Origin: Octopus vulgaris
Taxonomy: Eukaryota
DNA: 64,000 nucleotides
Direction: 5' to 3'
Assembly: GCA_951406725.2 (NCBI GenBank)
Contig: OX597817.1
Location: 77,624,001 to 77,688,000 of the forward strand
Both the position numbers and the translations under genes were made by a program. Below, one piece after another: positions 10,530-60,234 of the stretch (position 1 is its first letter; every line of letters starts with the position of its first letter). The notes beneath the pieces were generated by a model. The model saw only the letters and a program-made list of their open reading frames with translations, made no database searches and was not told where the DNA came from.

Positions 10530-11021
<492 letters not shown>

Positions 11022-11044
11022 CTTTAAATATATATATATATATC

Positions 11045-11291
11045 ATTTTTGGATTTGGTTTACAAGATTCTTTATATGAGTTCGTGTGTTGAAGCATATT
11101 ATGTTGTGTCTGAGGAGAGTCATTTTCTTTTAACACACTCACCGGTAAAATTTCCACTTATTTCTTATTTTTATTTGCCTAAAATTTTTGTTACGTCTTG
11201 CAACCTTTTCAATAGTCTTATTGAAAAAGGTTGCAAGACGCAACGAAAATTATAAGGCACAAAAAGAAAATGACTCTCCCCAGACACAACA

Positions 11292-11292
<1 letters not shown>
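11045..11292. mobile_element. Fold-back element in (TA)n with variant hammerhead motif (family H5)
   Basis: Inverted arms centred near 11216; hammerhead-like fold at 11215-11258 on +. Confidence 0.65.
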
Positions 11293-11345
<53 letters not shown>

Positions 11346-11912
11346 TTTCAGGAAAGAGATAAAAAAAGTTTTATATACTATATATACTATATATACTATA
11401 TATATATATATATATATGGTATATTAAATTTTTTCTCTAACTTTCATGAAACGGAATTTCATTAGAGATTAGACAAATCATAAATGTCTCTAAAAGGTTC
11501 AGCAACGCGAAATCTATTATACACCACAAAAATAATTTTAGAAATTTCCCCTTATCCAAGTCATTGGTTAAATCAAATTCCTTATCGTTTTCCATTAACC
11601 AATGACTTTTCACGTAGGGTCTCTTCATGTCGTACAGATGCTAAAATATATACATACATCCATCCATCCATACATACATACGTGCATGCATACATACATA
11701 CACACACACAGACACACACACACACACACACATATATATACATATATATACGATGAGCTCCTTTCAGTTTTCGCCTACCAAATCCACTCACAAGACTTTG
11801 GTCGGCCGAGGCCATAGTAGAAAACACATGCTCAATATGCCACACAGTGAGACTGAACCCAGAACCACGTGGTAGGGAAACAAACTTCTTACCACACAGT
11901 CAACTTCAAGAA

Positions 11913-31710: not shown

Positions 31711-32359
31711 GAGGATCTTTTCCTTTTGAACGACAGATGTCAACACAATTTCTAGTTAACTAAACACTTTTAAACTTCGTATACTGGTAGAATGTGTTTA
31801 TAAAACATCATTTTCTCTTGGTTTTATTGAGAAAATTCTATAGTTTGTAAGATATTTCGTCTGAAAATCCGAGCATTTCGGCAATTTTAACCAATCGATT
31901 ACCTCCATTCAACTAAAATCATTTGCTGCGTCTAAAACTGAGACAACATCCTGTAGCTAACCCTAAACCTCCTCCCTAACCCTAACACTAACCCTGATTT
32001 TTTTTTCTTAATTGTTAAATTAATTTAATTCCGTTGCTTTTGTTTTTTTTACACGTGTAACAATTAAATTAATTTAACAATTAAGAAAAAAAATTTAGGG
32101 TTAGGGTTAGGGGGGAGGTTTAGGGTTAGTTACTGGATGTTGTCTCAGTTTTAGACGCAGCAAATGATTTTAGCTCAAAAGAGAGCATAGGATTGGTTAA
32201 AATTTGAAAAATTAAACTACGTTAAACAAACAAATTACAATTTTCTCAAGAAAGCCAAGAGAAAAAAATGTTTTATTTTGACACATTCTACCAGTATACG
32301 AAGTTTTAAAGTGTTTAGTTAACTAGAAATTGTCTGCCGTTCAAAAGGAAAAGATCCTC
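31711..32359. mobile_element. Long fold-back MITE with TTAGGG-like repeats, nested in a SINE A copy (about 31585-32595)
   Basis: Ends GAGGATCTTTTCCTTTTGAACG / CGTTCAAAAGGAAAAGATCCTC; arms pair imperfectly over about 300 bp; CCCTAA runs at about 31958-31995 and TTAGGG runs at about 32095-32128. Confidence 0.8.
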
Positions 32360-58350: not shown

Positions 58351-58914
58351 TATAAAGGTTGGCAGTGGTTTGGAAGTTTCGAATGACTGGCCGTCATCAG
58401 AACATAACGAGCAGGAAGAAAAGAAAAAACAGCAGGGCATTTTGTCCGACCTCTCACGATTCTGCCAATATAATGGTTCTACCAAAAAAAGTCCAGGAGC
58501 AAAAAAAAATTTTCCATGATAAATAAATTTCCTTTCTGTCTTCTAATTTTAATTGCTTATGTTCTGTTCTTCGAATGTTTTTCTCGTTATGTCTTACTTT
58601 CTATATGTTGCCGACTTATTTTGTGTTTACTTTTATTTGTAGCTTAATCTCCTGCTGTTGTTTTATTCATCTAGCTAAGATTGTTATTGTTGTTGTTGTT
58701 GTCTTCGTTACTTCTGCGTTTTTGTTTCCCCCTCGTTTTTGTGTAACATTATTCAGCCCTAACTTCGGTTTCGTATTTGGTTTGCAAGATTCTAGATGTA
58801 AATTCGTGTGTTGAAACAAGTTCTGTTGTGTCTTGGGTGAGTCATTACACCAGTAATAAACACACGCACTGCTTCGATTCCACTTCTTTATTATTAGCCA
58901 ATTGGTTAAATATC

Positions 58915-59577: not shown

Positions 59578-59792
59578 CTTTTACTCTTTTACTTGTTTCA
59601 GTCATTTGACTGCAGCCATGCTGGAGCACCGCCTTTAGTCGAGCAAACCGACCCCAGGACTTATTCTACCGGTCTCTTTTGCCGAACCACTAAGTTACGG
59701 GGACGTAAACACACCAGCATCGGTTGTCAAGCGATGTGGAGGGGACAAACACAGACACGCAAACACACACACACACACTCACACACACACAC

Positions 59793-59836
<44 letters not shown>

Positions 59837-60000
59837 GACGGGTTTCTTTCAGTTTCCGTCTACCAAATCCACTCACAAGGCTTTGGTCGACCCGAGGCTA
59901 TAGTAGAAGACACTTGCCCAAGGTGCCACGCAATGGGACTGAACCCCAGAACCATATGGTTAGCAAACAAGCTACTTATCACACAGCCACTCCTGCGCCT
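59578..60000 (-). mobile_element. SINE family A, full length
   Basis: Ends exactly at the AGGCGCAGGAGTGGC head on the minus strand. Confidence 0.85.
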
Positions 60001-60234
60001 AGCGACAAAAGAACTTCGACACTGAGCTGACAGTGAAGCGAGAGAAAAAGTCATTGATGAGGCAGCAAAGAAAGAACTTGGGCTTGCAAACAAACACTCG
60101 ATTGATTGTTTGACCAGCACATTTAATAAACGATCAGTTAGTTAGATGGTAAGATATGTAGTCCATTGACTAACAACGAAGAAGTGGAATTGAATCTATG
60201 CGTGTGTTATTATTGGCGTAATGACTCTCCCTTT

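What the first reader, a model, noticed from the sequence alone, without database searches (positions are those of the whole stretch)
11215..11258. Hammerhead with a possible compensatory U3:A8 core
The fold reads GTCTTA-TTGAAAA-AG-GTTGC(AAGAC)GCAAC-GAAA-AT-TA^TAAGGC, with a 6-bp stem I, 5-bp stem II and AATT palindromic stem III. The core is UUGAAAA rather than CUGANGA. C3 and G8 pair in the active hammerhead and U3:A8 keeps that pair, so this may be a functional variant that standard descriptors miss. Both arms of the fold-back have TTGAAAA, and a related element has TTGATGA at about 60054.
Basis: partly seen in the sequence, partly recalled or inferred. Interest (0 to 1): 0.7.

Follow-up and report, generated by a model that had tools for sequence, protein, structure and literature searches.

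The report
Decayed Penelope hammerhead, known U-A variant
This motif is a damaged, folded-back scrap of a jumping gene with thousands of copies, carrying an already published variant of a predicted self-cutting RNA; its neat-looking fold here arose by accident and this copy would likely not cut itself.

Summary
The letters are as described and are not chance, but the reading needs correcting. The motif is the minimal hammerhead at the 3' end (pseudo-LTR) of a Penelope-like element with RT and C-terminal GIY-YIG endonuclease; one 21-letter pattern has 3,181 genomic hits. U3:A8 is the family norm and is published for Penelope-like hammerheads (PMC4209133; PMC3088659). The 6-bp stem I is not a family feature: its 5' strand comes from the fold-back junction, its 3' strand follows a 56-nt deletion whose junction has 2 exact hits genome-wide. 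With the upstream arm present, both hammerhead stems have pairing probability 0.000. The left arm lost G12; the copy at 60054 is a related family but lost half of stem II. The proposed test fails: among copies 3 and 8 vary independently (6 C3:G8 seen, 4.2 expected), and related lineages amplified with U3:G8, C3:A8, C3:G8 and U3:A8, while stems II and III change in a compensated way. That last point is the only mildly new observation. The scan reported this variant before, in this and other genomes.

The parts
11044..11219 (-). 5'-truncated 3' end (pseudo-LTR plus tail) of a Penelope-like element, family A; its hammerhead has U3/A8 but G12 changed to A
   Evidence: 86.7% over 203 nt to the 3' end of a long ORF-bearing copy, BLAST span 11032-11219 running into the flanking TA repeat; alignment; minus-strand reading
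11220..11292 (+). Inverted, 5'-truncated partial pseudo-LTR joined head to head to the left arm; lacks the tail; carries one extra A and a 56-nt deletion
11215..11220 (+). Apparent stem I 5' strand; five of its six letters are the end of the inverted left arm
11221..11227 (+). Hammerhead core positions 3-9, U3 at 11221 and A8 at 11226; the majority state of family A
11230..11244 (+). Stem II, 5 bp with 5-nt loop; inherited family feature
11245..11251 (+). GAAA box and palindromic AATT (dimer stem III); the last five letters are the microhomology of the deletion
11252..11258 (+). Apparent position 17 and stem I 3' strand; brought here by the 56-nt deletion
11293..11342 (.). (TA)n run flanking the insert; a TA run also flanks the left end (about 11028-11043): likely the target site
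   Evidence: TA preference of related clades in PMC8557442
60035..60231 (+). Old remnant of related family B; core U3/G8 at 60054-60060, 5' strand of stem II deleted
58764..58895 (-). 3' tail of a related pseudo-LTR (family B-like), without the hammerhead

Best explanation
The motif is the minimal hammerhead inherited from the 3' pseudo-LTR of an abundant Penelope-like retrotransposon, lying in a short head-to-head fold-back insertion, and this copy is likely inactive. Shown: the parent element is at least 3.4 kb, codes RT followed by a zinc-finger-like linker and a GIY-YIG endonuclease, and the motif lies about 1 kb after the ORF and 150-200 nt before the 3' end. Shown: the window copy is two 5'-truncated pseudo-LTR ends joined head to head between TA runs, with a later or co-insertional 56-nt deletion at a 5-letter microhomology that by accident supplies a 6-bp stem I. 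Inferred from the literature: in the parent, two such motifs on a tandem transcript would pair through the palindromic stem III and cut slowly as a dimer. Inferred: U3:A8 arose in two steps in the master lineage (U3 first, with G8, then A8), is tolerated, and is not proven to be selected, since other lineages amplified with U3:G8 or C3:A8.
For: Copy number and majority state. ORF upstream of the motif in four copies and GIY-YIG above Pfam's cut-off in 2 of 5 fragments; a 61%-identical relative gives a weak RVT_1 hit below cut-off. Inverted pseudo-LTR upstream in 4 of 12 long copies and an adjacent inverted piece flagged in 20 of 30 copies picked by their 3' end, as described for these elements (PMC8557442, PMC3846280). 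Junction and deletion. Stems vanish once 20 nt or more of upstream arm are included. G8 copies are mostly an older subfamily that has U3: 21 of 25 classed old from downstream letters alone; G8 clusters on the tree (0 of 500 shuffles as low), C3 does not (217 of 500). Same layout with an extra G before stem II in all lineages, matching the published min-hammerhead consensus.
Against: No cleavage or expression data. In family A stem I is only 3 bp in the register that keeps it, and absent in the ungapped register, so even the parent's motif may not be catalytic. No head-to-tail tandem with an ORF between two motifs was seen for family A in 12 long copies and 4 close pairs. RT of family A itself gave no Pfam hit; it is identified by motifs read by eye and by homologues. 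The tree is weakly resolved (bootstrap not settled). A transcript starting within about 10 nt of the junction could still fold the window's hammerhead (stem I 0.66).
Confidence: 0.85

Rival explanations
1. The hammerhead in this whole group of elements has become a structural or protein-binding RNA element: helices are kept, catalysis is dispensable, so the 3:8 pair and positions 9 and 17 drift.
For: Amplified lineages with non-Watson-Crick 3:8 states: family B 16 C3:A8 and 17 U3:G8 against 4 C3:G8 and 10 U3:A8 of 51 (hand tally); subfamily split B1 mostly C3:A8 (6 of 9), B2 mostly U3:G8 (11 of 20); old family A U3:G8; young family C has C at position 9 in 39 of 41 anchored hits. On 11 distinct hand-picked rows stems II and III are 94.5% and 100% paired with two-sided changes, the 3:8 pair has no two-sided change against its commonest state. 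5' ends of copies do not pile up at the cut (2 of 30 within 11 nt). Naiads spread without canonical hammerheads (PMC8557442).
Against: The two youngest, largest lineages seen (A young, C) both have a Watson-Crick 3:8 pair; U4, G5, A6 and GAA stay nearly invariant; family B patterns fixed several columns and its copies are old, so master states are inferred from majorities; low activity can still matter in vivo.
Confidence: 0.3
2. One reading: the window's own 44-nt fold, with 6-bp stem I, is a working ribozyme kept by selection on a compensatory U3:A8 pair.
For: The isolated 44-mer folds as drawn; U3:A8 hammerheads are reported active in vitro (PMC3088659, citing earlier work).
Against: Arrangement is essentially single-copy; it is buried in the fold-back hairpin; two letters are inserted before stem II; no partner motif in the same orientation was found by the descriptor in the window; no 3/8 covariation.
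Confidence: 0.07
3. The insert is a DNA-transposon MITE or a microRNA hairpin and the hammerhead likeness is incidental.
For: Terminal inverted repeats and a long hairpin; sub-threshold microRNA matches in Rfam.
Against: Arms are variably 5'-truncated ends of an RT/GIY-YIG element; all Rfam matches lie below gathering scores; a sister family has the canonical C3/G8 core in the same layout.
Confidence: 0.02

Closest known systems
Minimal type I hammerheads (min-HHR) in pseudo-LTRs of metazoan Penelope-like elements, including the U3-A8 variant of Schistosoma mansoni Cercyon elements (Cervera & De la Pena 2014, PMC4209133; read parts 1-2 of 4: abstract, results, discussion, start of methods; figures and supplements not seen)
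   Same: Position near the element's 3' end; no or tiny stem III with palindromic 15.2/16.2; extra unpaired letter between 9 and 10.1; G10.1-C11.1; short stem I; U3-A8 core; opposite-strand pairs close together; mostly single truncated copies.
   Different: Host is probably an octopus; stem II is 5 bp (7-8 in S. mansoni); family stem I only 3 bp; related lineages show U3:G8 and C3:A8 majorities, which the text I read does not mention.
Natural U3/A8 hammerheads (Perreault et al. 2011, PMC3088659; read section 8 and search passages)
   Same: C3-G8 replaced by U3-A8, described there as natural covariation and active in vitro.
   Different: Those are fuller ribozymes; here a minimal dimer-type motif in a decayed copy.
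Neptune/Nematis-type endonuclease-bearing Penelope-like elements (Craig et al. 2021, PMC8557442, passages; Arkhipova et al. 2013, PMC3846280, passages)
   Same: RT then CX2-5CxxC linker then GIY-YIG with CCHH; 5' truncation; inverted 5'-truncated copy; optional 30-40 nt tail; TA-repeat targets; microhomology deletions; short palindrome at the pseudo-LTR 5' end.
   Different: Clade (Neptune versus Nematis) not settled: no reference set was compared. No intact family A ORF was seen; the longest open stretch printed was 530 aa.

Membership tests
Penelope-like min-hammerhead (type I) | Core boxes 3-9 and GAAA around a stem II closed by G10.1-C11.1 | tested here: met
   with U3/A8, the published variant
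Penelope-like min-hammerhead (type I) | Unpaired letter between position 9 and 10.1 | tested here: met
   G in all 12 aligned rows; the window copy has one more A
Penelope-like min-hammerhead (type I) | Palindromic stem III allowing a dimer | tested here: met
   AATT in family A; A-U versus G-C two-sided change across lineages
Penelope-like min-hammerhead (type I) | Stem I as an inherited helix | tested here: inconclusive
   Window's 6 bp is accidental; family A has 3 bp in one register, none in the other; family B has 4-5 bp (12 of 17 copies with the expected 3' strand, of 30 examined, pair at the fifth position)
Penelope-like min-hammerhead (type I) | Located in the pseudo-LTR of an RT + GIY-YIG element | tested here: met
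Penelope-like min-hammerhead (type I) | Self-cleavage (as a dimer) | not testable with these tools
   Needs an assay; no raw RNA reads were offered
Hammerhead with selected compensatory 3:8 pair | Positions 3 and 8 change together to keep a Watson-Crick pair | tested here: not met
   Independent among copies (p=0.32), anti-correlated in family B (p=0.007); stepwise in family A
Neptune/Nematis-type Penelope-like elements | C-terminal GIY-YIG with CCHH and an upstream CX2-5CxxC linker | tested here: met
   Pfam GIY-YIG; cysteine and histidine motifs read by eye in translations
Neptune/Nematis-type Penelope-like elements | Placement in one named clade on an RT tree | not tested
   No named reference RTs were fetched
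Rfam hammerhead families | Score at gathering threshold | tested here: not met
   No hammerhead family among 108 matches at E<=10

The most novel reading that the evidence does not exclude
One group of octopus Penelope-like elements amplified successfully with all four states of the hammerhead 3:8 pair (C:G, U:G, C:A, U:A) while keeping its helices by compensated changes. The hammerhead fold would then be held for a non-catalytic role or only trace activity, and the lineages give a natural allelic series for asking whether self-cleavage matters for Penelope retrotransposition.
Probability: 0.3. Interest if true: 0.5.

Novelty: new member of a known kind. Interest (0 to 1): 0.2.

Why it matters
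The locus itself matters little: it is one decayed scrap among thousands, and its variant core is in print. The side result is of modest use: what hammerheads do in Penelope-like elements is still unclear (PMC8557442 says so), and here lineages with paired and unpaired 3:8 states, including a young family with near-identical copies and long open frames, offer matched natural variants for a cleavage test. It is also a caution for scans: fold-back junctions plus microhomology deletions can create a convincing stem I by accident.

Tried and rejected
Rfam on the whole window (top 150 of 476 rows seen) and on 198 nt: only sub-threshold microRNA-type matches, rejected. General repeat finder: swamped by microsatellites. 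Expression: no RNA holder listed on record and no raw reads; no evidence either way. Contigs of four other runs list no change at positions 3 or 8 reaching 4 in 100; contigs drop rare variants, so this shows only the majority state. Cut site as a 5' boundary of copies: 2 of 30, not enriched (three of the 30 look like duplicates of each other). Four close same-family pairs checked for a tandem with an ORF between: none had one. No remnant of the element's protein in the window by tblastn. A type III reading using the small upstream hairpin as stem I was considered by eye and dropped: no UH triplet in front and no closing pair. Luense et al. 2017 (hammerhead variants of Penelope-like elements that cleave as dimers) and one biochemical paper on 3:8 exchanges were not held; they, and the figures and supplements of PMC4209133, may already list U3:G8 or C3:A8 cores. 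Paper searches for those states and for octopus hammerheads found nothing relevant beyond PMC4209133, PMC3088659 and PMC8557442 in the listings.

Full report
Observation. Alone they fold into the two stems, and a relaxed hammerhead descriptor finds this site only, against 0 hits in 60 shuffled windows. The motif is the right half of a fold-back: 11176-11260 folds into one hairpin of -43.9 kcal/mol, against -9.3 for the hammerhead as drawn. With 20 nt or more of upstream sequence all 11 hammerhead pairs drop to probability 0.000; with 10 nt stem I falls to about 0.66. Rfam lists no hammerhead family here.

What it belongs to. The 190-nt fold-back has many relatives in the genome. A 21-letter pattern open at positions 3, 7 and 8 has 3,181 exact hits, the reversed control 0. 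[quoted passage not shown] Twelve long copies align over up to about 3.4 kb; 10 of them show the motif near the 3' end and 4 have an inverted pseudo-LTR upstream. Of 30 copies picked by their 3' end, 20 were flagged with an adjacent inverted piece. This is the anatomy of endonuclease-bearing Penelope-like elements of the Neptune/Nematis type (PMC8557442 and PMC3846280, passages). The closest named proteins are labelled Octopus vulgaris, so the host is probably an octopus. In the window the minus-strand arm (11044-11219) has the tail, the plus-strand arm (11220-11292) is the inverted partial copy, and TA runs flank both ends.

The window's stem I is accidental. Against ordinary copies, the right arm begins at the letter before U3; the five letters before that are the end of the inverted left arm. 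After GAAA and three more letters, 56 nt are deleted at a 5-letter microhomology, which brings in the apparent position 17 and 3' strand. That junction pattern has 2 exact hits in the genome; the other copy has a different 5' strand. In ordinary family A copies stem I is 3 bp if the palindrome AATT is read as a loopless stem III, or absent if the alignment to sister families is taken without gaps. The left arm has lost G12. The element at 60054 belongs to a related family (B) but lacks the 5' strand of stem II.

Positions 3 and 8. Among the 3,181 hits, 145 have C3 and 93 have G8, of which 6 have both (all 93 rows tallied by hand); 4.2 are expected under independence, p=0.32. Copies mutate neutrally after insertion, so lineages are the better test. 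Using only downstream letters, 21 of 25 sampled U3:G8 copies belong to an older subfamily, while 21 of 25 C3:A8 copies are young-type point changes; on a tree of 116 rows with 3, 7 and 8 masked, G8 clusters (0 of 500 shuffles as low) and C3 does not (217 of 500); the tree is weakly resolved. In the older subfamily, the first 100 of 214 hits give 73 U3:A8, 17 U3:G8, 6 C3:A8, 1 C3:G8, 3 other (hand tally). So U3 likely came first and A8 later. Family B's 51 hits give 16 C3:A8, 17 U3:G8, 10 U3:A8, 4 C3:G8, 4 other (hand tally), an anti-correlation (p=0.007) that follows two subfamilies (30 of the 51 examined). A young sister family C (protein 61% identical; copies 97-99% identical) has C3:G8 but C at position 9: 36 of 41 anchored hits are identical. 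On 11 distinct hand-picked rows from these lineages, stems II and III are 94.5% and 100% paired with three pairs changed on both sides, while 3:8 is paired in 81.8% and U:G is its commonest state (13 of 500 shuffles as high, a weak control for related rows). Both steps from C:G to U:A are transitions toward A+T, so drift alone would also end there (inference).

Mechanism. Published model (PMC4209133, parts 1-2 of 4 read; review PMC6765202, passages): two minimal hammerheads on a tandem transcript pair through the palindromic stem III and cut slowly, possibly to free or circularise the RNA. For family A this is inferred, not shown, and I saw no head-to-tail tandem in my sample. 5' ends of 30 copies do not gather at the predicted cut (2 within 11 nt) but 11 lie between 13 nt upstream of U3 and U3 itself, at a small palindrome; a palindrome at the pseudo-LTR start is described for rotifer elements (PMC3846280). 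The window copy most likely arose as a head-to-head truncated insertion and is inert.

Known or new. U3-A8 in place of C3-G8 is described in Penelope-like elements of Schistosoma mansoni, about 1,300 hits (PMC4209133), and as natural, active covariation (PMC3088659). The bioRxiv paper on retrozymes (10.64898/2026.07.22.740005, part 1 of 5 and a term search) does not mention octopus. I found no paper in the listings on octopus hammerheads of this kind or on U3:G8 and C3:A8 cores, but a key paper was not held. Earlier notes of this scan reach the same verdict for this variant; they are unchecked and not counted as support. Verdict: new member of a known kind, this copy decayed; interest 0.2.

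Noticed in passing
L297-L326 (e.g. G000:C18:50369350 and 50373930; C1:59393767 and 59398368): A young sister Penelope-like family (C) with 97-99% identical copies, open frames up to about 1,300 codons and same-strand pairs about 4.6 kb apart; its hammerhead has C3:G8 but C in place of A9. Likely the best substrate for functional tests.
   Followed up: partly
L327-L356: 5' ends of family A copies cluster just upstream of the core (11 of 30 within 14 nt), at a short palindrome; may mark the pseudo-LTR start or a stop site of the reverse transcriptase.
   Followed up: partly
window 60035-60231 and 58764-58895: Two old remnants of related family B, whose subfamilies carry U3:G8 and C3:A8 cores.
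   Followed up: yes
window 10570-11020, 11750-11905, 59580-60000 and others (family D19): Many copies of a short interspersed repeat with internal microsatellites; it looks like an octopus SINE (recalled, not tested).
   Followed up: no
window 31915-32171: A long near-perfect inverted repeat containing degenerate TTAGGG-like units (seen in the alignments); probably another fold-back element.
   Followed up: no
L165:5600-5900, L114: The family A ORF has an asparagine/threonine-rich low-complexity stretch near its N-terminus, recalling the N-rich inserts reported in rotifer Penelope ORFs (PMC3846280).
   Followed up: no
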